A stretch of 64,000 bases of DNA from contig JAPLSQ010000076.1 in assembly GCA_026398535.1 (NCBI GenBank), positions 10,237-74,236 on the forward strand, in the 5' to 3' direction. The DNA is from Candidatus Sumerlaeota bacterium. GTDB taxonomy: Bacteria; Sumerlaeota; Sumerlaeia; Sumerlaeales; Sumerlaeaceae. Positions 2-49,392 of the stretch are shown piece after piece; position 1 is the first letter of the stretch; every line of letters begins with the position of its first letter. Below the pieces are notes generated by a model. That model had not been told where the DNA came from. It worked only from the letters and a program-made list of their open reading frames with translations, and made no database searches. The position numbers and the translations under genes are program-made.

Positions 2-3000
2 TGCGGCACCATGGCCCGCCTGAAAGATGCCGCTGCCGCGGCGGCGGAACTGACGACAGGTGTTGCCGGACTGCGGAACGCGGACCTGAGCTGGTGGTGC
101 GAGGGCCTCGAACAGCAATGCCGTGACTTCATCGATGAGCTTTCCGGGGCGGCGCCATGGGCATGCGTGATTGGCGAAATTGATGGCGACCTGCCTGATG
201 ACAATCCAGTCTATGGCGATCTGCGCCGTCTGACGCGCGACCTGAACCAGGGGGCGACGCTTCGGCAGATGACCGCATACGAAGAACCGCTGCTGCCGCT
301 GATCGACATCGCGATTGAAGAGTTGGCAAAGGGAAACGGCAACAACGACCCCGCCGTGATCAAAAGGTTACATCGCCTGCGGCAGACTGTAACTCAAGCA
401 GCCGACCGCGCCCGCAACAGGATCCGCGGAATCGAACGCCTTGCAGCACTCTGCGGGGAATTGTCGGAGTTCGAGTGCGATTTCCTTTACGACATATCGC
501 GCAATCTTTTCACGGTCGGCTACCACACGGCCGAGCGCCGCCGTGATTCCAGCCTTTACGATCTGCTCGCGTCAGAAGCGAGGCTGGCCAGTTTCGTGGC
601 GATCGCGCACGGACAGGTTCCCCAGAAACACTGGTTCTCCCTGGGCAGGCAACTCACGATGGCCGGAGGAGAAACGGCGCTCCTCTCGTGGAGCGGCTCG
701 ATGTTCGAATACCTGATGCCCAACCTCGTGATGCCGTCGTTTGCGGACACACTGCTTGACCACACCTGCCGGGCCATCGTTGACCGGCAGATTGAGTATG
801 GCCGCCAACGGGGAGTGCCATGGGGCATTTCGGAGTCGGGCTACAATGTTATTAACGCACGGCTGGACTACCAGTACCGCACTTTTGGCGTGCCGGGGCT
901 TGGCCTGAAGCGGGGACTTTCCAAGGATGTCGTCATCGCCCCATACGCAACGATGCTGGCCCTTATGATTGACGCCGAAGAAGCTTGCGCCAATCTGCAA
1001 ACGATGGTGGCGCTGGGGGACGAAGGACCCTACGGGATGTATGAGGCAATCGATTACACGCCCTCACGACTCCCCCGCGGCCAATCCAGCGCTCTCGTGC
1101 GTTCGTTCATGGCGCACCACCAGGGCATGAGCTTTCTTTCCCTGGCCTGCCTGCTGCTTGACCGTCCGATGCAACGGCGGTTTGCGCTCGATCCGCAACT
1201 GCGAGCGACGGAACTCCTCCTGCAGGAGCGAATCCCCAAAGCCGCCCCGTTCTATCCGCACACAGTGGAAGTGGCGGCCACGCACGCCTCAACACAGCGC
1301 GAGGAAGACCTTGTGTCGGTTTTCAACTCCCCGCATTCGGCGCATCCCAAGGTGCAACTCCTCTCCAATGGCCGCTACAGCGTGGCGATTTCGACCGCGG
1401 GGGGAGGGCTCAGCCGTTGGCACGAGCTTTCGGTGACCCGCTGGAGGGAGGATGCCACCCTCGACAATTGGGGACAGTTCTGTTACATCCGCGATGCCGA
1501 TTCGGGCGAGTTCTGGTCCGCCACCCACCAGCCTGTGCGCAGGGAATCGCGCCATTACGAAGCGATCTTTTCCCACGGGCGCGCGGAGTTTCGGCGGACC
1601 GACGCCGGCATCGATACACATTCGGAAATCGTCGTTTCCTCGGAGGATGACGTTGAGATGCGGCGCACGACGCTGACGAACCGTTCGCGCGCGCGCCGCC
1701 GGATCGAGGTCACTACCTATGCTGAAGTCGTGCTGGCGAACCAATCCTCCGATGAGGCCCACCCGGCGTTCAGCAACCTCTTTGTGATGACCGAAATCGT
1801 GCGGTCGCGTGAGGCGATCCTCTGCACCCGCCGGCCCAGAGCGCCCGGCGAACACCACCCGTACTTGCTGCACGTGCTTGCGATGCATGCAAATGAGGCG
1901 GGCGAGGCCTCGTATGAAACCGATCGCCTGAAGTTCATAGGCCGGGGAAACAGCGTGACCGACCCGCTGGCCATGCATGGCAACACGTTGTTGTCGGGCA
2001 GCGAGGGTCCCGTCCTGGACCCGATTCTCGCCATCAGGCGAATCGTCGTGCTCCAGCCCGACGAAAAGGCCATCGTGGACGTCATTACCGGCATCGCCGA
2101 AACGCGCGACGCGGCACTCGCACTGGTGGAAAAGTATCGCGACCGCCGACTCGCGGAGCGGACGATCGAACTCGCTTGGACGCACGATCAAGTCATGTTC
2201 CGGCAGATTCAGGCGACCCAACGCGACCTGACTGTGTATCAGCAGCTGGCCGCCGCGATTCTCTACACCAACCCGGCGCATCGCGCCAATCCGAAGACTC
2301 TGATGCAAAACCGGCGCGGGCAACCCGGTCTTTGGGGATATGGCATTTCGGGCGATCTGCCGATCGTGCTGCTGCGAATCGATGATCAAAGTCACATCGC
2401 CCTCGTGCGGGAAACGGTGCAGGCGCACACATACTGGCGCGGGATGGGCCTTGCTGCCGATCTCCTGATCGTCAACGAGAGCAGATCCGGCTACCACCAG
2501 GTTCTTCAGGATGACATCGTCGCGCTGGTGACGGCAAGCGGCGAGCCGGCCGACCGGCCCGGTGGCGTCTTTGTCCGGCGGGCTGACCAGATGCCCGAGG
2601 AGGATCGCGTTCTGCTTCTGGCGTCGGCACGTGTCATTCTCACGGGCGGCAGCGGGACGCTCGCCGAACAGGCGCGCCGCCGCGGCCGGCCCGAAGCAAC
2701 AATCCCACCGCTGGCGCCGGCGCGGCCGATTCGTCCCGCTGCCGCAAAGACGGAGGAACCTCCGTACCGCGAACTGCTGTTCCATAACGGAATCGGCGGA
2801 TTCACGACCGATGGCCGCGAGTACGTCATCACGACACGCCCCGGCAACAGGACTCCGGCTCCCTGGGTGAATGTGATGGCCAACCCGTTTTTCGGCACGG
2901 TGGTCACAGAGAGCGGCGGCGGATACACATGGAGTGAAAACGCCCACGAGTTTCGCCTGACACCCTGGTCGAACGATGCGGTAAGCGACACGAGCGGAGA

Positions 3001-5170
3001 AGCACTGTATATTCGCGACGAGGAAACCGGCGCGTTCTGGTCGCCCACGCCTCTTCCGGCGGGCGGCGTCGCGCCCTACGTGACCCGCCACGGCTTTGGC
3101 TACTCTGTGTTTGAGCACTGGGAGCATGAGATCGCATCGGAGCTCTGGGTCTATGTCGCCATCGACGCCCCCGTGAAGTTCTTTGCGCTCAAGCTGCGCA
3201 ACCCAACCGGCCGCGCACGGCGACTGTCGGTCACCGGTTACGTCGAGTGGATCCTCGGCGAACTGCGCCGCAACAGCCTCCTGCACGTCAGAACCGAGAC
3301 AGACCCGAAAACGGCAGCCATGTTCGCATGCAATCCGTATCACGCCGGCATGGCTGACCGCGTTGGATTCCTCGATGTGAGCGATTCGAGACGAACTGTG
3401 ACGGGCGACCGCACGGAGTTCCTTGGCCGCAACGGATCTCGCGCCGCACCGGCTGCCATGACGCGCGCGCGGCTGTCGGACAGAATCGGCGCCGGCATGG
3501 ATCCGTGCGGCGCGATGCAGGCGCATCTGGACATGCCGCCCGGCGATGAGCAGGAAATCGTGTTCGTCCTCGGCGCCGGACGCGACAAGAACCACGCCCG
3601 CTCACTGGCGGAGCAATTCAAGGGGGCCGGCGCGGCGCGCAAAGCGCTTGAAAAAGTGTGGGAATACTGGAACCGCGCGCTTGGCGCCGTGTACGTTGAA
3701 ACACCCGACAAGTCATTCGATGTTCTTGCCAATGGCTGGCTTGTTTATCAGACACTGGCATGCCGAATGTGGGGACGCTCCGGGTTTTACCAGTCGGGCG
3801 GGGCATTTGGATTCCGGGACCAGTTGCAGGACGCAATGGCGCTGGTTCACACCGAGCCTGCGCGGCTCCGCGAACATCTGCTGCTCTGCGCCGCCAATCA
3901 GTTCGCGGAAGGCGACGTGCAGCATTGGTGGCACCCGCCATCGGGGCGCGGTGTTCGCACCCGCTGCTCCGACGATCGCCTGTGGCTGCCGCTTGCGGTG
4001 TGCCGCTATATTCGGGCGATCGGAGACACCGGCGTGCTTGACGAGCAAACAGCTTTCCTTCAGGCCCCTCCCCTCAGGCAGGACGAGGAATCGCGCTACG
4101 ATCTCCCTGCCCGGTCCCATGCACCGGCAACTCTCTACGAGCACTGCGTCCGGGCGATCAATAGGAGCCTGGACCGCGGCGCGCACGGTCTCCCCCTGAT
4201 CATGGGGGGCGACTGGAACGACGGGATGAACCTTGTCGGCCACGAAGGAAAGGGCGAGAGCGTGTGGCTCGCATTTTTCCTCCATGACGTGCTGCGGCAG
4301 TTTGCGGGAATTGCGCGACAGCGCGGCGACAAAGATTTCGCCGAGTGCTGCAACACCGAAGCCGGGCTTCTGCATCAAAGTATTGAGCGGCACGCATGGG
4401 ACGGCGAGTGGTACCGGCGCGCCTACTATGACAATGGAGAACCTTTAGGGTCCGCGATCCAGGCTGAATGTCAGATCGATTCTCTCTCACAAAGCTGGGC
4501 GGCGCTCACGGGAGCGGGCTCTCCCCTGCGCTGCCAGACAGCCATGGAATCGTTCAACCGCCGGCTGGTGCGCCGCGACGCCCGGCTCATTCTGCTTCTC
4601 GACCCGCCATTCGACACGTCACCACAGGAACCGGGCTACATCAAAGGGTATGTTCCCGGAGTAAGGGAAAACGGCGGGCAGTATACCCACGCCGCGATCT
4701 GGGCCGCGATGGCATACGCCGCGGCAGGCGACAGCGAAGGCGCTTGGGATCTCATGAAGCTGATCAATCCGCTGAATCATTCCTCCGCGCCCGATCAAAT
4801 TGCGACCTACCGCGTGGAACCATATGTGGCGGCCGCGGACGTGTACGGTGTGCCACCCCACACCGGGCGCGGCGGGTGGACCTGGTACACCGGATCCGCG
4901 TCATGGATGTACCGGCTGATGATCGAATCGCTGCTGGGGCTGAACCTGGAAGTGGACAGACTGCGCCTGAAACCATGCCTGCCGCAAAATTGGCCAGAGG
5001 TGCGGATCAACTACCGCTATCATGACACCTGTTATCAGATCCTGATACAACGGAAAGACAGTGGCGGCGGCGTCCTGAGGGTGATTCTTGACGGAATGGA
5101 GCAGCCGGGCGGGACGATTCCGCTTAAAAACGACCGTCAGAATCATTCCGCTGTTGTCGAAGTAGGATAA
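2..5170 (+). CDS. Cyclic beta-1,2-glucan synthase-like protein (GT84 region followed by GH94 glycoside phosphorylase domain). It is 5'-partial: the frame is open to the window edge.
   Basis: 1719-aa ORF with GH94 N-terminal beta-sandwich motifs (NGRYSVAISTAGGGLSRW, WGQFCYIRD) and a GDWNDGMN catalytic-region motif. Upstream GSMFEYLMP and RTFGVPGLGLKRG motifs are typical of Cgs/NdvB-type proteins. No stop or start within the first 10 nt, so the gene begins upstream of the window. Confidence 0.7.
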   Translation, partial: CGTMARLKDAAAAAAELTTGVAGLRNADLSWWCEGLEQQCRDFIDELSGAAPWACVIGEIDGDLPDDNPVYGDLRRLTRDLNQGATLRQMTAYEEPLLPLIDIAIEELAKGNGNNDPAVIKRLHRLRQTVTQAADRARNRIRGIERLAALCGELSEFECDFLYDISRNLFTVGYHTAERRRDSSLYDLLASEARLASFVAIAHGQVPQKHWFSLGRQLTMAGGETALLSWSGSMFEYLMPNLVMPSFADTLLDHTCRAIVDRQIEYGRQRGVPWGISESGYNVINARLDYQYRTFGVPGLGLKRGLSKDVVIAPYATMLALMIDAEEACANLQTMVALGDEGPYGMYEAIDYTPSRLPRGQSSALVRSFMAHHQGMSFLSLACLLLDRPMQRRFALDPQLRATELLLQERIPKAAPFYPHTVEVAATHASTQREEDLVSVFNSPHSAHPKVQLLSNGRYSVAISTAGGGLSRWHELSVTRWREDATLDNWGQFCYIRDADSGEFWSATHQPVRRESRHYEAIFSHGRAEFRRTDAGIDTHSEIVVSSEDDVEMRRTTLTNRSRARRRIEVTTYAEVVLANQSSDEAHPAFSNLFVMTEIVRSREAILCTRRPRAPGEHHPYLLHVLAMHANEAGEASYETDRLKFIGRGNSVTDPLAMHGNTLLSGSEGPVLDPILAIRRIVVLQPDEKAIVDVITGIAETRDAALALVEKYRDRRLAERTIELAWTHDQVMFRQIQATQRDLTVYQQLAAAILYTNPAHRANPKTLMQNRRGQPGLWGYGISGDLPIVLLRIDDQSHIALVRETVQAHTYWRGMGLAADLLIVNESRSGYHQVLQDDIVALVTASGEPADRPGGVFVRRADQMPEEDRVLLLASARVILTGGSGTLAEQARRRGRPEATIPPLAPARPIRPAAAKTEEPPYRELLFHNGIGGFTTDGREYVITTRPGNRTPAPWVNVMANPFFGTVVTESGGGYTWSENAHEFRLTPWSNDAVSDTSGEALYIRDEETGAFWSPTPLPAGGVAPYVTRHGFGYSVFEHWEHEIASELWVYVAIDAPVKFFALKLRNPTGRARRLSVTGYVEWILGELRRNSLLHVRTETDPKTAAMFACNPYHAGMADRVGFLDVSDSRRTVTGDRTEFLGRNGSRAAPAAMTRARLSDRIGAGMDPCGAMQAHLDMPPGDEQEIVFVLGAGRDKNHARSLAEQFKGAGAARKALEKVWEYWNRALGAVYVETPDKSFDVLANGWLVYQTLACRMWGRSGFYQSGGAFGFRDQLQDAMALVHTEPARLREHLLLCAANQFAEGDVQHWWHPPSGRGVRTRCSDDRLWLPLAVCRYIRAIGDTGVLDEQTAFLQAPPLRQDEESRYDLPARSHAPATLYEHCVRAINRSLDRGAHGLPLIMGGDWNDGMNLVGHEGKGESVWLAFFLHDVLRQFAGIARQRGDKDFAECCNTEAGLLHQSIERHAWDGEWYRRAYYDNGEPLGSAIQAECQIDSLSQSWAALTGAGSPLRCQTAMESFNRRLVRRDARLILLLDPPFDTSPQEPGYIKGYVPGVRENGGQYTHAAIWAAMAYAAAGDSEGAWDLMKLINPLNHSSAPDQIATYRVEPYVAAADVYGVPPHTGRGGWTWYTGSASWMYRLMIESLLGLNLEVDRLRLKPCLPQNWPEVRINYRYHDTCYQILIQRKDSGGGVLRVILDGMEQPGGTIPLKNDRQNHSAVVEVG

Positions 5171-13438: not shown

Positions 13439-16114
13439 TCAGCCGGTCGGCAGTTCCTCGACGGTGAATCTGGCCTCAAGCGAGGTTTTTGAGCTTCCGC
13501 CAACCATGACAAGGAAGCCGCCGGGCTCGACGACGCGCCGCAATTTCGCGTTATACAGCGATAGCGCCGCCGGGGTTAGTTCAAACTTCACGGTGCGTGT
13601 TTCACCGGACTGTAGCTCAATCCGCTCAAACGCTTTCAACTGCTTGCGCGGCCTCTTTACTGTGGCAAGCAGGTCGCGGATATAAACCTGCACGACTTCG
13701 GCGCCGGCTCGGTTGCCCGTATTGGTGACATCCACGCTGACGGGCACATTCGCGCCCATTTTCACCTTCTCCGGCGTCGTGAGATTCGCATAGCTGAATG
13801 TGGTGTAGCTCAACCCGTGGCCAAACACGAACCTTGGCTCGCCGGATGTGAAGATGTAACCGCCATACAAACCCCGGCCGCCGACCGGCTCATCGTATGT
13901 CTGCGGCAACTGCCCGACGTATGACGGCCAGGTAACGGGCAGCTTTCCGCACGGATTGTGATCGCCGAACAGCACATCGGCGATGGCGTTGCCGCCCTCC
14001 TGGCCCGGATACCATGCCGTGAGCGCCGCGCCCACATGATCGAATTCCCACTCCATGGTCAAAGGGCGCCCGCCAATATGCGCCAACACGGTTGGTGTGC
14101 CGGTTTCGACGACTGCTCGGACAAGCTGATCCTGGCTGCCGGAAAGGTCAATGAACGCGCGGTCGCGCACCTCGCCGCTCGTGGCGATGCAGTCGCCGAC
14201 GAACACCACAGCGGCGTCGGCTTGGCGCGCGATGTCCGCCGCGCGGGCGATGCCCCCGGCGCCAGGATCAATTCCCTGCCATACGAATGAAATGGAATCA
14301 ATGAAGGCCCGGTTGAAATGCTCAAGCACGATATCGTAGCGCTCATTGGCGGTTAATTGAATTTCCGCCGTATGCGTCTCGATCGCCCCCTCGCGCCATT
14401 CGTCCACGAGCAATTGCCCGTTCACCCACAAGCGCGCCCCGTCGGAATGGCTTGCCCCGATGCGGTATCTTCCCGACGCTTCAGGGGTGAGCGTGCCGCG
14501 CCAGCGCGCCGAATAATCTTTTGGAATGCCCTCAATCGAGGCGGGCGACTTGCATTCGCCCGTGAAGACAACCATCTCGTCAACGCGTTCGAGCTTCGGC
14601 CCGCCTTCCAGTCCGCGGTTGTCGAAGTATTGTCCCAGCAGTCCCGCCACACCAGCCTGCGGAGCAAGGCCGCGGATCGTGCCCTTTGGAGTCAGATGCT
14701 TTCCCGCAACGGATTCCGCCCGCCCTGTTCCGCCCACGATCTTGCACCCTTCGGCATACAACACCTTTGTCCGCGGCGAAACAGCGGCGCGGATGCCCTC
14801 GAGCGGTGAAACAAGCGGCGTCATCCATCCGCTGTAGTCGCCGGTCTCCATCACGGCGGCGTTCGGACCAATCACGGCAATTGTCCCGATGTTCCTGTCG
14901 AGCGGCAGCAGATTCTTTTCATTCTTCAAAAGGACGATGCACTGGCGCGCCGTGTCGCGCGACGCCTCGCGGTGTTCCACGCATCCGCACAACGCTTCAG
15001 CACGATCCGGATCGGCGAACGGATCCTCGAACAGACCCAGGCGGAACTTCGCGCGAAGGATGCGCCGGCACGCTTCATCCACAGCGCTCGCCGGTAGTTT
15101 GCCCCCGCGCACAAGGTTGAGCGCCTGTTGCGACACCGAGCCTCCAAAACTCTGATCCACGCCCGCGCTGACAGCCAGCCGAACGGCGTCCTCATAGTTC
15201 TCCGCCACGCCGTGGCTTTGTTCCAGCAGGCCGATTGCGCCCATATCTTCAATCACATAACCGTCAAACCCCCATTCTTCCCGCAGTATCTCTGTCAGCA
15301 GTTCGCGCGAGGCGTTGCATGGCACGTAGCACCAGTCGCTGTAGGCGGCCATGATGGAACCGGCCTTGGCTTCGCGCACGGCCGCCTCGAACGGCGGCAG
15401 GGCAAATTCGCGCAGGAACTCGCGCCCATAGCCGACGGGGTGGCTGTCGCGCCCGCCCAGTGGCGCCCCATGGCCGGCAAAATGCTTTGGTGTGGCGATG
15501 ATGTGCTCCTTGCCGATGTTTGGGCTTTCGCCCTGCATGCCTTTGACCATGGCCACACCCATCCGCGAGCAAAGAAAGGGGTCCTCGCCGTACCCCTCCT
15601 CCATGCGCCCCCAGCGCGGATCGCGCCCCACGTCAAGCACGGGCGACAGTCCGCTCGTCGAGCCGCACGCGCGCGCCTCCTTCGCTATGAGCGCGCCGAT
15701 ACGGCGCGCCATATCGGGATTCCACGAACTCGAAAGCGCGATGGCTTGGGGAAAAATAGCGCAATTGGGCGCCGCGTTGCCGTGTAGTGTTTCACAGATG
15801 ATGAGCGCCGGAATCCCAAGACGCGTTGTTTCCATTAGAAACTTCTGGGCCGCGTTCGTGGCTTCCGCCAGCGACCGCGGACTGCTCTTGTCCTCGCGCT
15901 GATGAAGCGAACCCACGCCGTGCGGCCCGATGTTTTCACGCGCGGCCGGCTCGTAAAACCTGCCGTCCTTCATGAAACTGGGCCCATCGCCCCATGAATT
16001 GGGCAGCATGGTCAACTGACAGACCTTTTCCTCAAGCGTCATGCGCGACAGCAGATCCTCAACCCGATCCTCGACTGGCAGCACGGGATTCCTGTACGCG
16101 GCTTCAACCTTCAT
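13439..16114 (-). CDS. GH3 beta-glucosidase with an inserted PA14 domain.
   Basis: GH3 N- and C-terminal domain motifs (GFDGYVIEDMGAI, KHFAGHG) and a PA14-like insert (WRGTLTPEASGRYRIGASHSDGARLWVNGQLLVDEW). The start is set at the ATG at 16114, which is preceded by AAGGAG; the track ORF extends to 16171. Confidence 0.85.
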   Translation of the reverse strand: MKVEAAYRNPVLPVEDRVEDLLSRMTLEEKVCQLTMLPNSWGDGPSFMKDGRFYEPAARENIGPHGVGSLHQREDKSSPRSLAEATNAAQKFLMETTRLGIPALIICETLHGNAAPNCAIFPQAIALSSSWNPDMARRIGALIAKEARACGSTSGLSPVLDVGRDPRWGRMEEGYGEDPFLCSRMGVAMVKGMQGESPNIGKEHIIATPKHFAGHGAPLGGRDSHPVGYGREFLREFALPPFEAAVREAKAGSIMAAYSDWCYVPCNASRELLTEILREEWGFDGYVIEDMGAIGLLEQSHGVAENYEDAVRLAVSAGVDQSFGGSVSQQALNLVRGGKLPASAVDEACRRILRAKFRLGLFEDPFADPDRAEALCGCVEHREASRDTARQCIVLLKNEKNLLPLDRNIGTIAVIGPNAAVMETGDYSGWMTPLVSPLEGIRAAVSPRTKVLYAEGCKIVGGTGRAESVAGKHLTPKGTIRGLAPQAGVAGLLGQYFDNRGLEGGPKLERVDEMVVFTGECKSPASIEGIPKDYSARWRGTLTPEASGRYRIGASHSDGARLWVNGQLLVDEWREGAIETHTAEIQLTANERYDIVLEHFNRAFIDSISFVWQGIDPGAGGIARAADIARQADAAVVFVGDCIATSGEVRDRAFIDLSGSQDQLVRAVVETGTPTVLAHIGGRPLTMEWEFDHVGAALTAWYPGQEGGNAIADVLFGDHNPCGKLPVTWPSYVGQLPQTYDEPVGGRGLYGGYIFTSGEPRFVFGHGLSYTTFSYANLTTPEKVKMGANVPVSVDVTNTGNRAGAEVVQVYIRDLLATVKRPRKQLKAFERIELQSGETRTVKFELTPAALSLYNAKLRRVVEPGGFLVMVGGSSKTSLEARFTVEELPTG

Positions 16115-16283
16115 CAGTGTCTCCTTGAGCAGATTATTGTGAATGTCCCATGCTCCAAATTTACATATCATCCATCACCGAAAAAAAGCATCAGGGTGCG
16201 AGATTTATACAATTATTTACTTGAAAATCCGTCTATCGGGAATTTTATCAAGAAATATCATATGTGGAACACGTGAACCGTAT

Positions 16284-17642: not shown

Positions 17643-20225
17643 CTAAGGGCTTTCCGTTGTCCATCCCAGCGCGCCCAGCCGTTGTTTCAGTCTGCTGAAT
17701 TCCGTCTCCATTGCCGACAGATAGGCGCGTGCTGAATCGAGTTTGCCGCCGCGCAGGAGATTTTCCATCTCCCGGGCTGTTTGCGACATCGCGTTGGCGG
17801 CTATGGCTGTCGCGGAGCCCTTGATTGTATGCGATTCAATGCTGGCGGCCTCCGTTTCGCCCTTGGCCAGATTCACGCTCAACGCCGCGAGCCTGCCGGG
17901 AACGATTTCAAGAAACGATGCGATTGTTGACTTGGCGAGATCACGGTCGCCCATCATCAGTTCGAGCATTTCCGCCTCATTTAACAAGTTTGCCTCGGTG
18001 TCCTGTTTTGTGTCCGCGGTTGTGGCGGCTTTCTCAGTCAAGTGTTGAGGCGGCGCGATTCCTTTGCGCGGGGTTTCCCCGCTGAACGTTCGTTTCGGCA
18101 ACCAGTGCTCCAGTTTGGTGGCGAATTCGGAGATGCGGATCGGCTTGGCGATATAATCGTTCATTCCCGCCTGAAGGCATCGTTCCTTGTCGCCCCGCAT
18201 TGCCAGCGCCGTCAGCGCGATGATGGGCAGGCGCGGATTGAGCGCCCCCGCTCCGTCGGATTTGCGGATGAGGGCGGCCGCCTCAAAACCGTCCATTTCC
18301 GGCATATGGCAATCCATAAGCACAAGATCATACGGGATGGATTGAAGCGCATGGATGACCTCGCGGCCGTTTGCCACGGCGTCAGCCCGGTAGCCAAGCT
18401 TTGCAAGCATGGACATGGCCACAAGCTGGTTCGTGGGATTGTCTTCCGCCAGCAGAATGCGGATGTGCTTCGGGGGGGCTGATTGCGCAAGGGCGCCGGA
18501 TGCCGCGGCGGGGGCGGTTGGCGGCTGGCTGGCATTGTCTGAGGATGCCAGCGCCAACAAAAGCGACTTCAGAAGCTGGGATTGACGCACCGGTTTTGAA
18601 AGACTGGCAGAAAACGCCGCGCTGTCAGACCGCTGCGCCTCCGAAATCTGGCTGAGAGGCGTCATCAGCACCAGCCGCGTGTTCCTGATCGCCGGGGCGG
18701 ATTTGATGACGCGGCCAAGCTCAAGGCCGTTCGTCCCCGGCATATCCTTGTCAATCAGAGCCATTTGGAATGGATCGCGGCACAGGACAGCATCCTTCAG
18801 CGCGGCCACTGCATGGCTGGCGCTGTCTGCCGTGGCGATCCGGCATCCCCAGGCCCGGAGCGAGGCGCTTAGATATTGCGCGCAGGCAGAATTATCATCC
18901 ACCACAAGCGTGCGAATGCCCTCAAGCGCGTTCGATGATGGTTCAGTCGCGCCTGACGCGGCGGGCGCCTGTTCCTGTTTGTCCATCACGAAGGTGAACC
19001 AGAAAACCGATCCCTTGCCCTCATGGCTTTCGACTCCGATCTGTCCCCCCATCAGTTCCGCCAGTTGCTTTGAGATGGCCAGCCCCAGGCCCGTGCCGCC
19101 ATACTTTCGCGTCGTTGAATTGTCCATTTGTGTGAAAGGGTTGAACAGAAGTCCCAGCCGGTCGCGCGGGATGCCAATTCCTGTGTCCCTGACAGAAATC
19201 CGCAGTGTGGCGCGCTGCGCGTCCTGCGTTTCCGCGCGCGCATGGATGACAACTTCGCCATGTTTGGCGAACTTGATGGCGTTGCCTGTGAGGTTGACGA
19301 GTATCTGGCGGAGGCGTCCCGGATCGCCGCGCAGATTCAGGGGCGTATCGGGATCAATCATGCACACAAGCTCCAGCCCCTTCTCATGGGCGCGAACGGC
19401 GAACATCTCGGCGGTGTCCTCGATTATTTCGCGCATATCAAAGTCCAGTATCTCCAGCTCCAGTTTGTGCGCCTCGATTTTTGAAAAATCGAGGATGTCA
19501 TTGATCAGCGACAACAGCGACTCGCCGCTTGCGCGCACCACCTCGGTATAACGGCGTTGTTCGGGTGTGAGAAGCGTATCGAGCAGCAGGCCGGCCATGC
19601 CGATCACGCCGTTCATGGGCGTGCGTATCTCGTGGCTCATGTGGGCGAGAAACTCGCTTTTTGACCGGTTTGCCTCATCAGCCTTCCTTGCCATTTCCTC
19701 AGCCCTCTCAATGGCCTCCTTGAGCCGTCGGTTAGCCTCCACGACCGAGTCGCGCGCTGCCTGCGCGTCGAGCATTAGATTGAGCGCGGCGGCCCGCTGA
19801 GCCACAAGCGCCTTGTGCGACTCGCGGAGACGCTCGACCATGGCATTAAACGCGTGTGAAAACTCGCCCATGAAATCCACGTGTTGCGCCAGATCACCTT
19901 CGGCAATTTGCTGTGCCTGCCATGTGAGATGACGCAGAGCCGCCTGCAGGGATTTCAACGCGCCAGCCATGGAGCCGCGCATCGGCAATCGCCACGACAA
20001 ATCGCCGTTGGCCATGGCCAATGTGAAATCCCGCAAAGCCGCAAGCTCGCTTGAAAGTTCTGTGAACTCGGGCAGGGAAGCGATGGCAGGGACAAGCTCT
20101 TCGGGTATTTGACCTGTGACAAGCACATTGCTTATGGCCGACAGAGCGGCCCGGACGTCCGCGACGCCAAATTGCGGAGCCGGCTCGAAAGACGCCGCGA
20201 TTTGTCCTGGCGTGTCCGATTTCAT
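17643..20225 (-). CDS. Soluble hybrid sensor histidine kinase: HAMP-like, HisKA, HATPase_c, two REC domains, and a C-terminal Hpt.
   Basis: HAMP ([27 protein letters not shown]), H-box ([18 protein letters not shown]), G-box ([12 protein letters not shown]), two receiver domains (VVDDNS..., [11 protein letters not shown]...[14 protein letters not shown]), and Hpt ([17 protein letters not shown]). No TM segments. Confidence 0.9.
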
Positions 20226-20755
20226 GCGCCGCCCTGCTCCGCCGCCACAACTTCAAACCGGCATGTGCGTTCGCCCGTGCACCAGCAATCAATCTCCTTC
20301 ACATTGAAGGCTTTTCCCGTGAAGGACTCCAGAAGCCCCGAGATGAATCCCTCGTCATATTTGCAGATTTCTAAGTCAGATTCGGGCAGACCGGAACAAT
20401 CAAGGTCTTCGGACACTGTCAGAACGAAGTGCCCTTTTTCAGGGTCGGATTTTTCCACACGCAGGATGCCGATGCCCATTTCCTCAAAGATTTGCTGGAG
20501 GCGGCTGATGAAGGCATTCAAATTCGGCTGCGGGCCGACCACATGCGCGAAAAATTCCGCGCCTGCCAATTTGCCCGCATCCCTGAAGATGCGGTCGGCC
20601 TCGCTCCCGCCATAACCGCGCTCGATGACGTCGCGCAATGTGAACTGCATGAGCCGGTAAACTTCGAGCCGGGTTTGCGGGCCAAGGTTCGGCCGGCCAA
20701 TGCTGAGATCGCCCAGCAACGACCAGGTAAACGGATATTTACGTGTTGTTTCCAT
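20222..20755 (-). CDS. V4R (4-vinyl reductase) domain protein.
   Basis: C-terminal [39 protein letters not shown] matches the V4R C-x-G-x-TGK...C-x-G fold signature. Start is set at the ATG at 20755; the track ORF runs to 20878 and overlaps the PAS-sensor gene. The stop overlaps the HK start (ATGA). Confidence 0.55.
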
Positions 20756-22406
20756 CAGAGTCTTTTTCCTTTTCCTTTGATGATTGGACGAACTGGACGG
20801 GTTGGACATTTGCTTGTGGTTGGGGATTGTCCGATGGCTCGGGGTCATGGGGAATGCGATAACGCGGCGGACGGCCAAGTTCCAACATGAGGGCGTTGAT
20901 TTCCTGTTTGAGTTCGATCATGCGCTGTTCGCGCCCGACCATCGCGCTGTTGAAGGCTTCAAGCTCTTTCATTGTCCTGAGCAGCTTGACCTCGGCTTTT
21001 TTGCGCTTGCCGATGTCATGCACAGACGCCAGAATCTGCTCTTTTCCAAGCACGGACGTCAGGCGCATGGTGACCTCGGTCCAGAAGAGTTTGCCCTCCT
21101 TGCCGCGGGCAAGCCATTCGAACGTCTGCCGTTGTCCCTCCATTGCGCGCCGCAGATGTTCGCGCGCATCTTCCTCTGAATAGGGCGTTTCCCCCGCGCT
21201 GAGTTCGCCGATTGTCAAATGCAGAATCTCATCGCGGCTGTAATCATACATTTCAATTGCGCGCTCGTTGACGTCCACGATTGCTCCGTCCGGGATGTCG
21301 TGCACAAAAATGGCGTCGTCGAGCGAATCAAAGAGGATGCGTATGCGCCGCTCATTTTCCCGGACAGCCTCGTCGGTGCGCCTGCGCTCGGTTATGTCGT
21401 GCAGGCGGATGAGACGTCCCACCACCAAACGCTCGCGGAAACGCACATCCTGGACGGAGACATCGAAGGCGCGCGTCTGGCCGCCCGCGCTCAAACTGAT
21501 CTCGCCGCTTGTCACCGCTGTTTGTGAGCCATCGCCAAGGTATTCCGCAAGCTGAGGGAGCACATCAGCCGCGCGTTGTTCCAGCATCATCAGGGTGAGC
21601 CCGAACGTCTCCCTTGCGGACCTGTTCATGTCGAGCAGATACCCCTTCTCATCGACAACAAGTATCACGTCTGAAATGCTGTTCATGACCATTTCACGGG
21701 TGATTGGCGCAATGTCCAGGGCGCGGTAATAAAACACCGCAAAGAAGATCATTGAACTCGACACAACCTGCGCCGGAACCGCCATATTATAATGGGGCAC
21801 GGGTGTGATGTCCAATTGGAAAAGTATGTTCACAAGGTCCACAAACACGACCCCAAGGCCGATGAAAGCGGTCTGGCGTCGCTTGATGGGATTGCCTTTG
21901 ATGAAGGCGGTGAAGAGCAACACGAATGAAGCAACACAAGCGATTTGCGCGTAGCAAAACTGAACCCAATACCACGGGCCGTTGGTAAATAGAATGAGGC
22001 TCAGCGCGCCATGGTTGAAGAGCCGGTAGTCGTAGCGGAAAAGTTTGTGTGAGCCGCTGGTCAGTGACAACACGATGATCACAGCGGGCACGATGGCCAA
22101 AAGCAGCCAGCGCCCGCGGCGCAGCCAGCGCCCATAACCCCCATTCTGGATGGCCATCACGAGCAACGCCGATGCCAGAGGAGCGAGGGGGATGAAACGG
22201 GCCTTGGCCCAGAACACCTTCAGGCTGAAGTCGATCGTGACGATCTCCAGCGTGTAAATAATGCACCAAAGCGAACCGCACAACACCAACAGCCCCATTG
22301 AAACAGCCATGGGAACCGTGCGGTGGCGAAAACTGTAGATGGCGATAATGAGCGTCACCACCGCGGCAAAAACATTAGGAGCAATGTATGGAATCAGGGC
22401 AAGCAT
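20739..22406 (-). CDS. Membrane sensor: N-terminal multi-TM (7TM-like) domain, two PAS domains, C-terminal coiled coil, and no output domain.
   Basis: Roughly 7 hydrophobic helices in the first 230 aa, PAS motifs (ISDVILVVDEKGYLLDMNRSARETFG; LFDSLDDAIFVHDIPDGAIVDVNERAIEMYDY), and a coiled-coil ending (MIELKQEINALMLEL). There is no HisKA, HATPase or GGDEF domain. Confidence 0.75.
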   Translation of the reverse strand: MLALIPYIAPNVFAAVVTLIIAIYSFRHRTVPMAVSMGLLVLCGSLWCIIYTLEIVTIDFSLKVFWAKARFIPLAPLASALLVMAIQNGGYGRWLRRGRWLLLAIVPAVIIVLSLTSGSHKLFRYDYRLFNHGALSLILFTNGPWYWVQFCYAQIACVASFVLLFTAFIKGNPIKRRQTAFIGLGVVFVDLVNILFQLDITPVPHYNMAVPAQVVSSSMIFFAVFYYRALDIAPITREMVMNSISDVILVVDEKGYLLDMNRSARETFGLTLMMLEQRAADVLPQLAEYLGDGSQTAVTSGEISLSAGGQTRAFDVSVQDVRFRERLVVGRLIRLHDITERRRTDEAVRENERRIRILFDSLDDAIFVHDIPDGAIVDVNERAIEMYDYSRDEILHLTIGELSAGETPYSEEDAREHLRRAMEGQRQTFEWLARGKEGKLFWTEVTMRLTSVLGKEQILASVHDIGKRKKAEVKLLRTMKELEAFNSAMVGREQRMIELKQEINALMLELGRPPRYRIPHDPEPSDNPQPQANVQPVQFVQSSKEKEKDSDGNNT

Positions 22407-35624: not shown

Positions 35625-36440
35625 TTATTCGATGCTGAACAGAATGGGATCGGAGCGAACGCTGATGATTTTCCATCCGCCGGGCGTTTTTTTCAGCGCG
35701 TAGCGCTCGTCCTTGGCGCGCGCAACGCCCGAAGTGGCGTCCTCGCGCAGACAGTCGACCTTGGCCACATTGTGCGAGATGTTGACATAAACGTCGAGCG
35801 CCTTGCGCGTTGTGTTCTCTCCCTGCTCGTCGGCATAAAGCTGCGCGCGGCGTCTGACATATTCCTCCCGACCAACGCCGCCAAGCATTTCTTCGCCAAG
35901 CGTGTCATACTCGCGCGCGAAAGCCCGCGTGTTCCAGCTTTCAATAAAGACGCGCACCACTTCGCCCGGGTCGTCGAACGCGGCGGGATGAGGCCCGGAA
36001 GATTTTACGGCGGCCGCGCCCGTGTCGGTGGCAGCCCGTGCATGGGCGGATGAAATATATTGTCCGCGTCGAAGCTGGTATTCAACGCGGCCGAGAATGT
36101 TGAGCGCGTCGAATGGCTTCGTGATGAAATCATCGCACCCGAGCCCCGATGCCCAGTATGATTCGGGCTTGCCGCTGTTGGCGGTCATGGACGTGACAAT
36201 GATAAGCGGCGTTTCGGCCAGCCCGGCTGAGGAGCGCACACGTTTGCATATTTCCATTCCGCTCATGCCCGGCAGCCGCAACTCCATGATGACCAGATCG
36301 GGTCTTTCATTCACGATGATGGTCCAGCCCTCGGCGCCGTCGCATGCGGCAAGCACTTCGTAACCTTTCGGTTCGAGAATTGAACGCAACGCCAGCGATG
36401 ACTCCGGCGATTCTTCGATGATGAGAATTCGTTTGGACAT
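35625..36440 (-). CDS. Orphan response regulator: REC domain fused to an NTF2/SnoaL-like (DUF4440-like) C-terminal domain.
   Basis: REC motifs (ILIIEESPESS, DLVIMELRLPGMSG, KPF), then about 130 aa with an NTF2-like pattern (VVRVFIESWNTRAFAREYD...GGWKIISVRSDPI). ATG at 36440. Confidence 0.65.
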   Translation of the reverse strand: MSKRILIIEESPESSLALRSILEPKGYEVLAACDGAEGWTIIVNERPDLVIMELRLPGMSGMEICKRVRSSAGLAETPLIIVTSMTANSGKPESYWASGLGCDDFITKPFDALNILGRVEYQLRRGQYISSAHARAATDTGAAAVKSSGPHPAAFDDPGEVVRVFIESWNTRAFAREYDTLGEEMLGGVGREEYVRRRAQLYADEQGENTTRKALDVYVNISHNVAKVDCLREDATSGVARAKDERYALKKTPGGWKIISVRSDPILFSIE

Positions 36441-36709
36441 GACCGATGAATTTCTTAACAACCGCGCGGCGGATACAATTCAATTCTTGCGACGGGCGAA
36501 TTGTTGTCATACTAAGCAATCATCATTATAATATGCTATGATCATACGATCACATTATATTGATAATACCATGCAATAAAATGATATGACCGCTGCGGCG
36601 CGCAAAATGACGCTGTTTGTGACATCCGCGAACGCATTGCGGGGGCGGGCCGAAAAAGAGGGTCTCGATCGCTGATCTGGTTGAATTTATGATATTTGTC
36701 AAATCGCTA

Positions 36710-39418: not shown

Positions 39419-41467
39419 TCACTCCATAATCGCCTTCAGCAGGGCTTCTCTGGCGTCGGTGTAGAACTGGATGTCGATCTTCGTGGCCAGTTCGTCGGGC
39501 AACTCGATCAACTGCTTGCGGGCGGTGACGGGGCTTAGCAGCGCCGTGGCGCCCGCCTCGATCGCGTGTTCGGCAATCGTGACGGCATTGTATACGGGAT
39601 CAACCGATCCGCCCACATTGACCGAGCCGATAACCACCAAGCCGCCTTTTATGCTGCGCTTGAGCAGGGCACTGCACAGGGCCAGCAAAACGGCCATGCC
39701 AAGCCCGGCGCCGGATCTTGATGTGTCAAAACCCCGCAACTGCACCGAAAACTCGTGCTGGCGGGGATCGCGGTCCCCGACAAGAACCCTTGCCCGGGAA
39801 TATAGATTCTGCTCGGCGTACCGCACGCATTCGGCAAATGGTTGCGGCGCCGGCCGGTTAAGGATCTTCACCCCTGATCCTGGCCCCTCGTTGATCTCCA
39901 CACGATAAAGGCCCGGATACTCTTCCCCGCCGCCCGGACTTATGGTCCATACCTGGCCGGGTTCCAGCGGATCTCCGCCAATGCTGCTTTCCGTCTGCAA
40001 TTCTGGCGTCGATACGAATTTCTCGACCCCTTCGTCACCAAGCTGGTAGCTGAAATGCGTATTACGGAACTCAGCCGTGCCGATGCGTTTTTGCTGTTCT
40101 TTCACGCGCCGGCGGCATTCCAGTGCCACACGCACGGCCCATTCGAGATCCTCGTCCGATGGCCTCATTTCGGGATTTGGATATAGAAGTTTCAGCAAGC
40201 CGCTCACCGTCTTCTGCGCCGCCGTCGTATCGCGGCCGCTCAAAGCGCCGCCAAACAGGACACGTCCCTGCAATACATTAATACGACTCTGACTTCTAAG
40301 TTGTGACATGCATTCCGACAGGAAGTCGCTGACCATGCCGAAATGGTCCGTCAGCAGATTCTTGGCCATCTTCGGCGCGTCCCACCCGGGACCATATGCG
40401 TGAATTCGATCCATAAAAGCCGTGTCGTTGCGCATCTCCGGAGGCAATGGCCCAAGCAGATGGCCAATCCGCTGCTGATGTTCAACGTCAACTTCAAAGT
40501 TGCCAACCAAAACAATACTGCCATCAGCGCGAATGCTTTCCTTGCCGCGGCTGAATTCGCCGGACTCCATATAGCCTTTCATGATGTTGACGCCATCCTT
40601 CTGATCAAAGGACACGCCGGACACCTCGTCAAATGCCACGACGTCATACTGGCAAACCAAGCCGCGCTGACCACTGGCATTATTGACAAACATCCTGGCC
40701 ACAGTCGTCTTGCCGCCGGAAACCAAATGGGAATAAGGGGACAGTTGCTGGTATGCGTGACTCTTCCCCGTGCCGCGTGGCCCCAGCTCGACCATGTTGT
40801 AGTTGCGCTCAACAAATGGCGTCATGCGCAGCAGGACAAGGTTCCGGGCGCGTTCCGATAGCTGCTCCGGCTCAAGACCCACGCTGCGAATCAGCATGTG
40901 ACGCCATTCGTCGCTGGTAAACATCTCCCGGCCGCGGGCCAGGTCGGCCAGAACGTCACGCTTGGACAATTGAATCTCGCGCAGACTGGCTATGCCGAAC
41001 GCGCGGCCGCCAGACTCCTGGGCAATCGACGCGTCATACGTCAGTTCGACCTCAGCGTAAAAGCCGCCGGTCAGCATCCGCTCGTTGTCGCGAACCAGCT
41101 TGTCTTCTATGCGCACGTCACGAAGGCGCAGACTTGGCAATTCGACGATATAGGTGTCGGTCTTGGCGTCAAGTCGGGCCGAGATGCAGTCGATGATCTT
41201 GACTGATCCCTGTTCCCGCGCCCGGGCCTTGAAAAGCTCTTCTTCGCCGCCTCGCACAGATCGATTCGAAAGCTGTCGCTGGACGATCTCCAGCCCCTCT
41301 TCGATTTCTTTCGGGTCGGTCGTCGCACAGTACCGTCCCAACATGAACTCAACCACATACGTTGGCACCGGGAACTGCTTGGCAAACATGCGCACCAGGT
41401 CCTTGCGCACAATATAGCCCTCAAATGCCTTCGCCGCCAGTTTGTCCAGTTTGTCCAGTTCCATCAT
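39419..41467 (-). CDS. brxL: BREX system Lon protease-like protein BrxL.
   Basis: N-terminus MELDKLDKLAAKAFEGYIVRKDLVRMF..., a P-loop (GPRGTGKSH), and a C-terminal Lon-like protease domain. The ATG at 41467 lies 1 nt after the pglZ stop. Confidence 0.8.
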   Translation of the reverse strand: MMELDKLDKLAAKAFEGYIVRKDLVRMFAKQFPVPTYVVEFMLGRYCATTDPKEIEEGLEIVQRQLSNRSVRGGEEELFKARAREQGSVKIIDCISARLDAKTDTYIVELPSLRLRDVRIEDKLVRDNERMLTGGFYAEVELTYDASIAQESGGRAFGIASLREIQLSKRDVLADLARGREMFTSDEWRHMLIRSVGLEPEQLSERARNLVLLRMTPFVERNYNMVELGPRGTGKSHAYQQLSPYSHLVSGGKTTVARMFVNNASGQRGLVCQYDVVAFDEVSGVSFDQKDGVNIMKGYMESGEFSRGKESIRADGSIVLVGNFEVDVEHQQRIGHLLGPLPPEMRNDTAFMDRIHAYGPGWDAPKMAKNLLTDHFGMVSDFLSECMSQLRSQSRINVLQGRVLFGGALSGRDTTAAQKTVSGLLKLLYPNPEMRPSDEDLEWAVRVALECRRRVKEQQKRIGTAEFRNTHFSYQLGDEGVEKFVSTPELQTESSIGGDPLEPGQVWTISPGGGEEYPGLYRVEINEGPGSGVKILNRPAPQPFAECVRYAEQNLYSRARVLVGDRDPRQHEFSVQLRGFDTSRSGAGLGMAVLLALCSALLKRSIKGGLVVIGSVNVGGSVDPVYNAVTIAEHAIEAGATALLSPVTARKQLIELPDELATKIDIQFYTDAREALLKAIME

Positions 41468-41468
41468 G

Positions 41469-43808: not shown

Positions 43809-43841
43809 AGCACAACCCCCATATTCCGCCGGCTGCCAGAT

Positions 43842-43919
43842 TGACCCGGTAATTTACCGGGTCGAACGGCTCGCGTCGACAAGCCCGTCATCCTCTGGTG
43901 ACCCGGTAAATTACCGCGT
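43842..43919. promoter_or_regulatory. Two mirrored 21-bp palindromic sites upstream of pglZ (candidate operator or hairpins).
   Basis: GACCCGGTAATTTACCGGGTC (43842-43862) and GACCCGGTAAATTACCGCGTC (43899-43919), 57 bp apart. The second is the reverse complement of the first with one mismatch. They lie 34 and 91 bp upstream of the pglZ start. Confidence 0.5.
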
Positions 43920-46054: not shown

Positions 46055-46070
46055 TGCCGGTTCTCCTTTA

Positions 46071-49382: not shown

Positions 49383-49392
49383 GCCATTGACC

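What the first reader, a model, noticed from the sequence alone, without database searches (positions are those of the whole stretch)
17643..22406. Three-gene split signalling module: membrane PAS sensor, V4R protein, soluble hybrid histidine kinase with Hpt
The output-less PAS sensor is followed by a small V4R-domain protein (a ligand-binding fold otherwise known from XylR/DmpR N-termini and archaeal proteins). The V4R gene is translationally coupled (ATGA) to an 860-aa cytoplasmic hybrid kinase (HAMP-like, HisKA, HATPase, REC, REC, Hpt) that has no sensory or TM domain of its own. The layout suggests a sensor complex assembled from three polypeptides, with the V4R protein as an adaptor or ligand-binding subunit. 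I know of no characterised precedent for V4R in a two-component pathway.
Basis: inference. Interest (0 to 1): 0.6.

Follow-up and report, generated by a model that had tools for sequence, protein, structure and literature searches.

The report
V4R sensor paired with HAMP kinase
A small cysteine-rich V4R protein and the sensor-less hybrid kinase beside it are one copy of a widespread, apparently undescribed two-gene signalling cassette, while the membrane PAS protein upstream is a local add-on.

Summary
Three overlapping minus-strand genes in a Candidatus Sumerlaeota genome encode a 7TM-PAS-PAS protein with no output domain, a 177-aa V4R protein, and an 860-aa cytoplasmic hybrid kinase joined to V4R by ATGA.

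The three-protein reading is only partly supported. The conserved unit has two genes. In 150 of 152 assessable relatives from at least 12 phylum-level groups, mostly anaerobes, this V4R family sits directly upstream of a signalling enzyme. One exception is an IS110 insertion. Each partner starts with the same roughly 110-aa cytoplasmic tandem-HAMP module. The output varies: 49 of 76 partners carry GGDEF, 21 are kinases, and HD-GYP and PP2C occur once each. The upstream gene is unrelated in almost every locus.

All five V4R cysteines are invariant. Three have the spacing of the DmpR zinc ligands and of the redox-sensitive cysteines of MsvR, the closest characterised relative.

Most likely, V4R is a trans-acting sensor, possibly thiol/metal redox, that docks on the kinase's tandem-HAMP module, much as H-NOX or NosP partner with kinases and cyclases. 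The PAS protein would be a lineage-specific second input. I found no paper describing this cassette. I rate it a new variant of a known kind, of moderate to high interest.

The parts
20739..22406 (-). Gene 1: membrane sensor, 555 aa, with no catalytic output domain
   Evidence: ORF. Pfam HisKA_7TM plus PAS families only. A close relative (L087, 96% aa identity over the part present) keeps it directly upstream of V4R.
21705..22373 (-). HisKA_7TM membrane domain (residues 12-234)
   Evidence: Pfam E 3.3e-45, covering the full profile 3-224 of 224. Hydropathy peaks.
20997..21698 (-). Two PAS domains (about residues 237-353 and 353-470)
   Evidence: Pfam PAS_9, PAS, PAS_4 and PAS_8, with two stretches for PAS_8 and PAS_4. 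NCBIfam sensory_box gives 2 stretches.
20859..20966 (-). Conserved C-terminal helical tail ELEAFNSAMVGREQRMIELKQEINALMLELGRPPRY (residues 481-516)
   Evidence: The motif ends 13 PAS proteins that lack an output domain, always 24-67 aa from the C-terminus. No Pfam family matches it. It has no profile similarity to the HisKA DHp.
20739..20755 (-). 17-nt overlap between the sensor's 3' end and the V4R start codon region
   Evidence: Sequence read. An AAGGAAAAGGA purine run lies upstream of ATG 20755.
20222..20755 (-). Gene 2: stand-alone V4R protein, 177 aa. All five of its cysteines are family-invariant: C120, C131, C157, C159 and C165.
   Evidence: Pfam V4R 51.1 bits. 5,964 homologous clusters at 60-80% identity across phyla. 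The Cys and Glu154 are conserved in 182-184 of 184 sequences. AF2 pLDDT is 77.9, and the fold matches the MopR, PoxR and DmpR sensor domains and MJ1460.
20222..20225 (-). ATGA overlap of the V4R stop and the kinase start
   Evidence: Identical in L087.
17643..20225 (-). Gene 3: cytoplasmic hybrid histidine kinase, 860 aa
   Evidence: Pfam domains. No TM segment. Best NCBIfam matches are BarA and TorS, both below their cut-offs.
19794..20165 (-). N-terminal V4R-associated module (residues ~21-144): one helix plus a tandem HAMP-like unit, with motifs [39 protein letters not shown]
   Evidence: Shared by all downstream partners. The HMM hit in the window has E 3e-43. Its two halves align with each other (hhalign prob 86%, E 5e-6). 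AF2 pLDDT is 92.6, with helices 21-37, 52-72, 85-108 and 121-144. There are 894 clusters at 50% identity, and the module is N-terminal in almost all of those listed.
18990..19664 (-). HisKA (188-252, H-box HMSHEIRTP at 195-203) and HATPase_c (300-412)
18111..18932 (-). Two receiver domains (432-558 and 590-705), each with DD/D/T/K residues
   Evidence: Pfam Response_reg gives 2 stretches. Sequences inspected.
17682..17921 (-). Hpt domain (769-848, His in ESHTIKGSA)

Best explanation
The operon is built around a two-gene sensory cassette that is widespread in anaerobic bacteria and methanogens.

The 177-aa V4R protein is a stand-alone cytoplasmic sensor. It is made just before, and translationally coupled to, a signalling enzyme that has no sensor of its own. 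That enzyme begins with a dedicated cytoplasmic tandem-HAMP module. In this window the enzyme is a HisKA-HATPase-REC-REC-Hpt hybrid kinase.

Inferred steps:
- V4R, probably as a dimer, docks on the tandem-HAMP module.
- A change at its invariant cysteine/metal centre alters the HAMP packing. The likeliest change is oxidation or reduction of a Zn-thiolate site, as in the MsvR V4R domain.
- The signal passes through the following helix to the kinase's autophosphorylation, and then to the His-Asp-His relay towards a response regulator encoded elsewhere.

The 7TM-PAS-PAS protein with its conserved C-terminal helical tail is a lineage-specific second input fed into the same kinase. It is not part of the conserved unit.

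Shown here: gene structure, domain content, conservation of the pair, the shared module, variable outputs and invariant cysteines.

Inferred only: physical binding, direction of regulation and identity of the signal.
For: 1. Pairing. The module starts less than 600 nt downstream on the same strand in 82 of 84 genome loci and in 68 of 68 assessable metagenome loci. The L009 exception is an IS110 insertion. In 40 of 75 loci the partner start lies within -4 to +13 nt of the V4R stop.

2. Constant module, variable output. Of 76 partners, 49 carry GGDEF, 21 HATPase_c, 1 HD_5 and 1 SpoIIE, and 55 hit HAMP. The same N-terminal consensus is present in all of them except one mis-called ORF (L049).

3. 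The module sits at the extreme N-terminus, with no TM segment before it. It is a tandem HAMP-like repeat.

4. The V4R fold matches the ligand-sensing domains of MopR, PoxR and DmpR (Foldseek prob 1.0, TM 0.55-0.60).

5. Best characterised sequence relative. The MsvR V4R region matches at E 3e-17 over residues 28-169. MaMsvR C206/C232/C240 have the same 26 and 8 spacing as C131/C157/C165 here, and they control redox-dependent DNA binding (PMC3729527; PMC7278568). The DmpR Zn ligands Cys151/Cys177/Cys185 have the same spacing (PMC7264223).

6. All five cysteines and Glu154 are invariant in 182-184 of 184 sequences.

7. Hosts are overwhelmingly anaerobes or microaerophiles, judged from record titles.

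8. V4R and module distances co-vary (r 0.52, 0 of 2000 permutations).

9. In L015 one V4R gene is flanked by a module-kinase and a module-cyclase.

10. The same dual partner pattern, kinase or c-di-GMP enzyme, is documented for the stand-alone sensors H-NOX and NosP (PMC8846402).
Against: - No interaction, metal content or ligand was measured, and a complex could not be modelled with the tools available.
- The loci analysed are the 160 closest relatives (60-70% identity), so the adjacency figure describes this subfamily and not all V4R proteins.
- The Mantel correlation can arise from shared descent alone.
- The V4R model is of moderate confidence. The loop next to C120 (residues 121-127) is below pLDDT 50, so the geometry of the five cysteines is unknown.
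- The match to MsvR is far below that family's cut-off (63 against 220 bits), and it lacks the DNA-binding half.
- No natural V4R-module fusion was found among the top 150 module representatives, so there is no Rosetta-stone support.
- No response regulator is adjacent, so the output of this kinase is unknown.
Confidence: 0.6

Rival explanations
1. The 7TM-PAS protein, V4R and the kinase form one obligate three-subunit sensor, in which V4R bridges the sensor's C-terminal helix to the kinase N-terminus.
For: All three genes overlap (17 nt and 4 nt) and stay together in the 96%-identical relative L087. A PAS protein with the same tail also precedes V4R in L041 and L112. In other genomes tail-bearing PAS proteins sit directly upstream of sensor kinases.
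Against: The upstream gene is unrelated in about 150 other loci, so V4R function cannot depend on it. Tail-bearing PAS proteins accompany kinases that have neither V4R nor the module. In L041 the partner is a GGDEF enzyme rather than a kinase.
Confidence: 0.12
2. The architecture is the same, but V4R senses a hydrophobic or aromatic small molecule in a closed pocket, as in XylR, DmpR, MopR and PoxR. The cysteines would only hold a structural zinc.
For: The top structural matches are phenol-bound MopR, PoxR and DmpR sensor domains. The three-Cys spacing equals that of the DmpR zinc ligands. V4R has long been predicted to bind hydrocarbons (PMC2253512). JGI names some members 'predicted hydrocarbon binding protein'.
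Against: Identity of 60-70% across 12 or more phylum-level groups and many habitats is unusual for a xenobiotic sensor. Two further cysteines (C120, C159) are invariant beyond the zinc triad. By sequence, the nearest characterised relative is the redox regulator MsvR and not the phenol sensors.
Confidence: 0.2
3. V4R carries an Fe-S cluster or a Cys-ligated haem and senses O2, NO or CO. That would make it a functional analogue of H-NOX or NosP in anaerobes.
For: There are five invariant cysteines in a 46-residue span. Hosts are anaerobes. The partner spectrum is the same as for H-NOX and NosP. V4R and HNOB are reported to be related (PMC5847659).
Against: No histidine is invariant in the family, which argues against H-NOX-type haem ligation. 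Three of the cysteines match a known zinc site. There is no cofactor evidence of any kind.
Confidence: 0.15
4. V4R is a constitutive structural or assembly subunit for the tandem-HAMP module. Like its fold relative Bet3 in TRAPP, it would have no sensing role, and the real signals would enter elsewhere, for example through PAS or GAF domains or the upstream PAS protein.
For: The fold also matches Bet3/TRAPP and BcsD scaffold proteins. Of 76 partners, 26 carry PAS and 7 carry GAF domains of their own.
Against: Many partners are minimal module-GGDEF proteins of about 290-310 aa with no other input domain. Those proteins would then have no sensor at all. The invariant cysteine set is more typical of a reactive or metal site.
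Confidence: 0.1

Closest known systems
H-NOX partner-sensor systems (HnoX-HnoK; H-NOX with DGC or DGC-PDE enzymes)
   Same: A small stand-alone cytoplasmic sensor is encoded next to, and regulates in trans, either a histidine kinase or a c-di-GMP enzyme that lacks its own sensor (PMC8846402). The V4R partners show the same split: 21 kinases and 49 GGDEF proteins of 76. HNOB and V4R are reported to be related folds (PMC5847659).
   Different: There is no HNOB domain hit and no invariant histidine for haem. The partner carries a dedicated tandem-HAMP receiver module. I do not know of such a module for HnoK; that is from memory and was not tested.
NosP-NahK
   Same: A stand-alone sensor gene sits beside a cytoplasmic hybrid kinase. 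The kinase core here resembles the NahK/ErcS family model at 203.8 bits.
   Different: The sensor is V4R, not FIST. The score is below the family cut-off of 400, so this kinase is not a NahK-family member.
MsvR (methanogen-specific V4R-domain redox regulator)
   Same: It is the closest characterised sequence relative of the V4R protein (E 3e-17 over residues 28-169). Its three conserved V4R cysteines have the same 26 and 8 spacing and mediate redox control.
   Different: MsvR is a one-component DNA-binding repressor with an N-terminal HTH. The window protein has no HTH, has two extra invariant cysteines, and is paired with a signalling enzyme.
XylR/DmpR/MopR/PoxR aromatic-sensing domains
   Same: They are the best structural matches. 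The zinc-ligand Cys spacing is identical. Both signal through a helical linker to an output.
   Different: In those proteins the sensor is fused in cis to an AAA+ sigma-54 activator. Here the sensor is a separate polypeptide acting on a HAMP module. Sequence similarity is undetectable by profile search against solved structures.
MetOD1 output domain of archaeal response regulators
   Same: It is a V4R/HNOB-like, three-Cys domain already placed inside two-component pathways (PMC5847659).
   Different: MetOD1 is an output fused after a receiver domain. Here V4R lies upstream of the kinase as a likely input.
Soluble poly-HAMP receptors such as Aer2 (from memory, not tested)
   Same: Cytoplasmic tandem HAMP units with no preceding TM helix, in which AS2 of one unit runs into AS1 of the next. 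This is consistent with the long helix 85-108.
   Different: In Aer2 the poly-HAMP flanks a haem-PAS domain in the same chain. Here the module is N-terminal and comes with a separate V4R gene.

Membership tests
Pfam V4R (PF02830) | Domain hit above the gathering score | tested here: met
   51.1 bits against a cut-off of 31, residues 152-211.
Pfam V4R (PF02830) | Three conserved cysteines at the zinc site, with spacing 26 and 8 as in DmpR Cys151/177/185 | tested here: met
   C131, C157 and C165, invariant in 184 of 184 sequences. DmpR ligands are taken from PMC7264223.
Pfam V4R (PF02830) | Bet3/V4R-type alpha-beta fold over the whole ~170 aa | tested here: met
   Foldseek prob 1.0 to MopR, PoxR, DmpR, MJ1460 and Bet3, TM 0.52-0.61. 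The model is of moderate confidence (pLDDT 77.9).
MsvR (NCBIfam NF053755) | Whole-protein score above the cut-off, with an N-terminal HTH DNA-binding domain | tested here: not met
   63.1 bits against a cut-off of 220. Only profile positions 103-236 are matched, so the HTH half is missing.
H-NOX/HnoK-type partner-sensor system | A stand-alone sensor gene adjacent to a sensor-less kinase or c-di-GMP enzyme | tested here: met
   150 of 152 assessable loci. Partner types are given.
H-NOX/HnoK-type partner-sensor system | HNOB domain with a haem-ligating histidine | tested here: not met
   No HNOB hit. No invariant His in the family.
H-NOX/HnoK-type partner-sensor system | The sensor binds the partner and changes its activity | not testable with these tools
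   This needs binding and phosphorylation assays. Multimer modelling was not available.
Hybrid (unorthodox) histidine kinase | HisKA with H-box His, HATPase_c, a receiver with the phospho-acceptor Asp, and Hpt with His | tested here: met
   Pfam hits. Motifs [31 protein letters not shown] and ESHTIKGSA were located.
BarA/TorS/ArcB equivalogs (NCBIfam) | Score above the equivalog cut-off | tested here: not met
   BarA 462.9 against 890. TorS 442.9 against 676.5. ArcB 346.8 against 838.
HAMP domain | Pfam HAMP hit with a helix-connector-helix pattern | tested here: inconclusive
   The window kinase scores 24.5 bits against a cut-off of 25. 55 of 76 partners hit at E<=1e-3. The helix pattern and internal repeat support a tandem HAMP. 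The Foldseek search of the monomer model found nothing.
HisKA_7TM sensor kinases | 7TM domain followed by a kinase core in the same protein | tested here: not met
   The 7TM domain is present (E 3.3e-45) but there is no HisKA or HATPase. Most homologues with the 7TM domain do carry a kinase or a GGDEF-EAL output.

The most novel reading that the evidence does not exclude
The five-cysteine V4R protein and its tandem-HAMP receiver module form a horizontally mobile, thiol/metal-based redox or oxidant input cassette. Anaerobic bacteria and methanogens would plug it onto diguanylate cyclases, histidine kinases, HD-GYP and PP2C enzymes. It would be a functional counterpart of H-NOX and NosP that has gone unnoticed. 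In this Sumerlaeota operon it would be combined with a second, membrane-bound PAS input acting through a conserved but unnamed C-terminal tail.
Probability: 0.3. Interest if true: 0.75.

Novelty: new variant of a known kind. Interest (0 to 1): 0.62.

Why it matters
- Stand-alone V4R proteins are common in genomes, but the searchable literature gives them no function beyond 'predicted hydrocarbon binding'.
- This family has a fixed partner, a dedicated cytoplasmic tandem-HAMP module. That makes its role directly testable.
- It would add a third family, after H-NOX and NosP, to the small set of trans-acting sensors that control kinases and c-di-GMP enzymes.
- It would show a HAMP module receiving its signal from a soluble protein instead of a transmembrane helix.
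- More than 590 species genomes carry the family, and cultured species (Sporomusa ovata, Acetobacterium, Desulfuromusa kysingii, Clostridium vincentii; also Geobacter sp. AOG2 and Desulfovibrio inopinatus) are among the hosts. The prediction can therefore be tested in organisms where redox and c-di-GMP control of lifestyle matters.

Tried and rejected
- **Msr regulators as a precedent.** I recalled that the Methanosarcina Msr regulators, next to MsmS and RdmS, carry V4R. The literature says HTH plus DUF1724 (PMC11784639), so I dropped this.
- **Tail as a degenerate DHp helix.** hhalign of the tail against the HisKA DHp gave prob 0.2%. Rejected.
- **Natural V4R-module fusions.** P0294 is a frameshift pseudo-fusion. 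P0295 is PAS-module-HD-GYP. No true fusion was seen.
- **Word-indexed profile search with the module.** It returned only 16 short proteins and was uninformative. The exhaustive representative search replaced it.
- **Foldseek of the module model against the PDB.** No meaningful hits, as expected for one chain of a dimeric helical bundle.
- **A conserved third gene after the partner.** None found. Receiver domains occur in 4 of 35 loci and CGGC in 3 of 35.
- **Promoter and terminator scan of the operon.** Counts do not exceed the shuffled controls.
- **Plasmid search with V4R.** No match.
- **Profile search of solved structures.** Only a marginal MJ1460 hit.

Full report
**What is in the window**

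Three co-directional minus-strand ORFs fill 17643-22406.

Gene 1 (20739-22406, 555 aa) has a full HisKA_7TM domain (E 3.3e-45), two PAS regions and no output domain.

Gene 2 is listed mechanically from TTG 20878. The family alignment and a family HMM start it at ATG 20755 (177 aa). That sequence is 100% identical to a protein annotated in a Candidatus Sumerlaeota MAG. It overlaps gene 1 by 17 nt.

Gene 3 (17643-20225, 860 aa) starts in the ATGA that ends gene 2. It has a marginal HAMP hit, then HisKA, HATPase_c, two receivers and Hpt. The catalytic motifs are intact and there is no TM segment.

The operon is bounded by a convergent pseudopilin-like gene and a divergent nrdR. It lies among housekeeping genes: rpoD, yceG, dnaK and a ribonucleotide reductase gene.

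A relative at about 96% identity (L087) keeps the three genes and the ATGA junction. Codon differences, synonymous versus non-synonymous, are 6/8 for the sensor, 8/5 for V4R and 26/15 for the kinase. These counts are few, but they are consistent with purifying selection, at least for V4R and the kinase.

**The V4R protein belongs to a large, unusually conserved family**

The search returned 5,964 clusters. The best 120 are 63-80% identical to the window protein and about 172-181 aa long. They come from Desulfobacterota, Geobacter, Methanoregula, Pedobacter and others.

By record title, the best 80 come from at least 12 phylum-level groups, almost all anaerobes or microaerophiles. A metagenome scan also hit its limit.

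No plasmid carries the family. No solved structure is a close relative. NCBIfam has no model for the family.

**The conserved unit is two genes, not three**

I built HMMs of the V4R family and of the partner's N-terminus. With these, 82 of 84 V4R genes in the genome loci have the partner module starting less than 600 nt downstream on the same strand. So do 68 of 68 assessable metagenome loci.

In L009 an IS110 transposase has been inserted between the two genes. L060 is the only true orphan. In 40 of 75 loci the partner start is within -4 to +13 nt of the V4R stop.

The upstream gene is unrelated from locus to locus. No gene after the partner is conserved.

**The partner is defined by a module, not by its output**

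Of 76 downstream proteins, 49 carry GGDEF, and 48 of the 76 keep a GG[DE]EF-type motif by pattern search. Another 21 carry HATPase_c, one carries an HD-GYP-type HD domain and one carries SpoIIE. HAMP is detected in 55.

All of them, apart from one mis-called ORF (L049), begin with the same roughly 110-aa sequence...[44 protein letters not shown]. This corresponds to kinase residues ~30-140.

An exhaustive search found 894 clusters at 50% identity with E<=1e-10. The module lies at the extreme N-terminus in nearly all of the 150 listed.

The two halves of the module align with each other (hhalign prob 86%, E 5e-6). AF2 gives pLDDT 92.6 with helices 21-37, 52-72, 85-108 and 121-144. This is the pattern of two concatenated HAMP units preceded by one helix.

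The window's architecture, kinase-REC-REC-Hpt, is a rare output. Hpt occurs in 2 of 76 partners. The nearest partner is a Verrucomicrobiales kinase at 45% identity.

V4R and module distances co-vary (Mantel r 0.52, 0 of 2000 permutations). That fits co-inheritance as a unit, although shared descent alone could produce it.

In L015 a single V4R gene lies between a module-PAS-kinase and a module-GGDEF.

**What V4R may sense**

The AF2 model (pLDDT 77.9) matches the whole aromatic-sensing domains of MopR, PoxR and DmpR. It also matches MJ1460, Bet3 and BcsD.

The protein has exactly five cysteines. All five, together with Glu154, are invariant or nearly so in 184 non-redundant sequences.

C131, C157 and C165 have the 26 and 8 spacing of the DmpR zinc ligands Cys151, Cys177 and Cys185 (PMC7264223). 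The same spacing is found in MaMsvR C206, C232 and C240. Mutating those residues alters redox-dependent DNA binding (PMC3729527). H2O2 oxidises MsvR and thioredoxin reduces it (PMC7278568).

MsvR is also the only curated family hit (E 3e-17, residues 28-169, far below its cut-off).

No histidine is invariant. That argues against H-NOX-type haem ligation.

I therefore favour a thiol/metal redox signal, at roughly one chance in three. A hydrophobic ligand and an Fe-S or Cys-haem gas sensor are the live alternatives.

**The first gene**

Homologues that share the 7TM domain mostly carry a kinase or a GGDEF-EAL output. The window protein is therefore an unusual form without an output domain.

It ends in a helical tail, ELEAFNSAMVGREQRMIELKQEINALMLELGRPPRY. 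I found this tail at the C-terminus of 13 PAS proteins, none with a catalytic output domain. No Pfam family covers it. It has no profile similarity to the DHp.

Three such proteins that I looked up lie directly upstream of large sensor kinases with no V4R. Outside the window's lineage, a tail-bearing PAS protein precedes V4R only in L041 and L112. L041 is an Anaerolineaceae MAG, L112 has a near-identical tail, and the L041 partner is a GGDEF enzyme.

My reading is that tail-bearing PAS proteins are a general accessory-input class for signalling enzymes. Here one has been joined to a V4R cassette. V4R does not need it.

**Comparison with known systems and novelty**

The cassette works like the H-NOX and NosP partner-sensor systems, which also pair with either kinases or c-di-GMP enzymes (PMC8846402). 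It fails their membership tests: no HNOB or FIST domain, no haem histidine, and the NahK-family score is below cut-off.

V4R-like domains have been placed in signalling before. Examples are the sigma-54 activators, MsvR, the MetOD1 output of archaeal response regulators (PMC5847659) and PYP-V4R fusions (PMC12826048). There is also a generic prediction that V4R signals 'in cis or trans' (PMC2253512).

Five full-text searches found no description of a stand-alone V4R paired with a HAMP-led kinase or cyclase. The library does not include most subscription-journal papers, so prior description cannot be excluded.

I classify the finding as a new variant of a known kind.

**Limits**

- Binding, direction of regulation and the signal are all inferences.
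- The loci sampled are the closest relatives only.
- The geometry of the cysteine cluster could not be read from the model.
- The cognate response regulator is unknown. The only other receiver domain in the window is an orphan at 35625-36461.

Noticed in passing
window 39419-52836, minus strand: A BREX-like phage-defence island. It has a BrxL-type Lon-like protease (39419-41524) and an Eco57I/N6_Mtase methyltransferase resembling PglX (46071-49382). Two large ORFs, 41469-43808 and 49393-52836, have no Pfam hit at 1e-6.
   Followed up: partly
window 35625-36461, minus strand: An orphan response regulator: a receiver domain followed by about 150 aa with no Pfam match. It is the only other receiver domain in the window and so a candidate, but unproven, phosphorelay target.
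   Followed up: partly
window 20859-20966; also P0126, P0138, P0154, P0160, P0167, P0180, P0181, P0187, P0191, P0195, and L041 ~4790-4930: An unnamed, strongly conserved C-terminal tail (EL..FN..MVGRE[LQ][RK]MIELK[KR]E[IV]N.LL..LG.P.[RK]Y) ends PAS proteins that lack an output domain. In the three cases looked up (L089-L091), these proteins sit directly upstream of large sensor kinases. The tail has no Pfam family and no profile similarity to the DHp.
   Followed up: partly
L015 3964-7457: A single V4R gene is flanked by two proteins carrying the module: a module-PAS-kinase upstream and a module-GGDEF downstream. One sensor may therefore serve two outputs.
   Followed up: partly
L009 6954-8264: An IS110-family transposase is inserted between a V4R gene and its module-kinase partner. 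This accounts for one of the two adjacency exceptions.
   Followed up: yes
L060 6004-7554: The only true orphan V4R in the sample. It is followed by a dihydrouridine synthase gene, and no module protein is present in the locus.
   Followed up: partly
window 21786-21814, minus strand: An 11-of-12 match to the sigma-70 consensus (TGGACA-17-TATAAT) lies inside the sensor ORF, after the membrane region. The number of such matches in the region does not exceed the shuffled controls.
   Followed up: no
L006 7268-7675: In a Methanoregula genome a hemerythrin gene lies 325 nt upstream of the V4R cassette. CGGC-domain proteins follow the partner in 3 of 35 loci. These are anecdotal links to redox or metal chemistry.
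   Followed up: no
window 11-5170 and 13439-16171: Carbohydrate-active genes flank the region: a 1719-aa GH94-family protein and a GH3 beta-glucosidase with a PA14 domain next to an IclR-type regulator.
   Followed up: no
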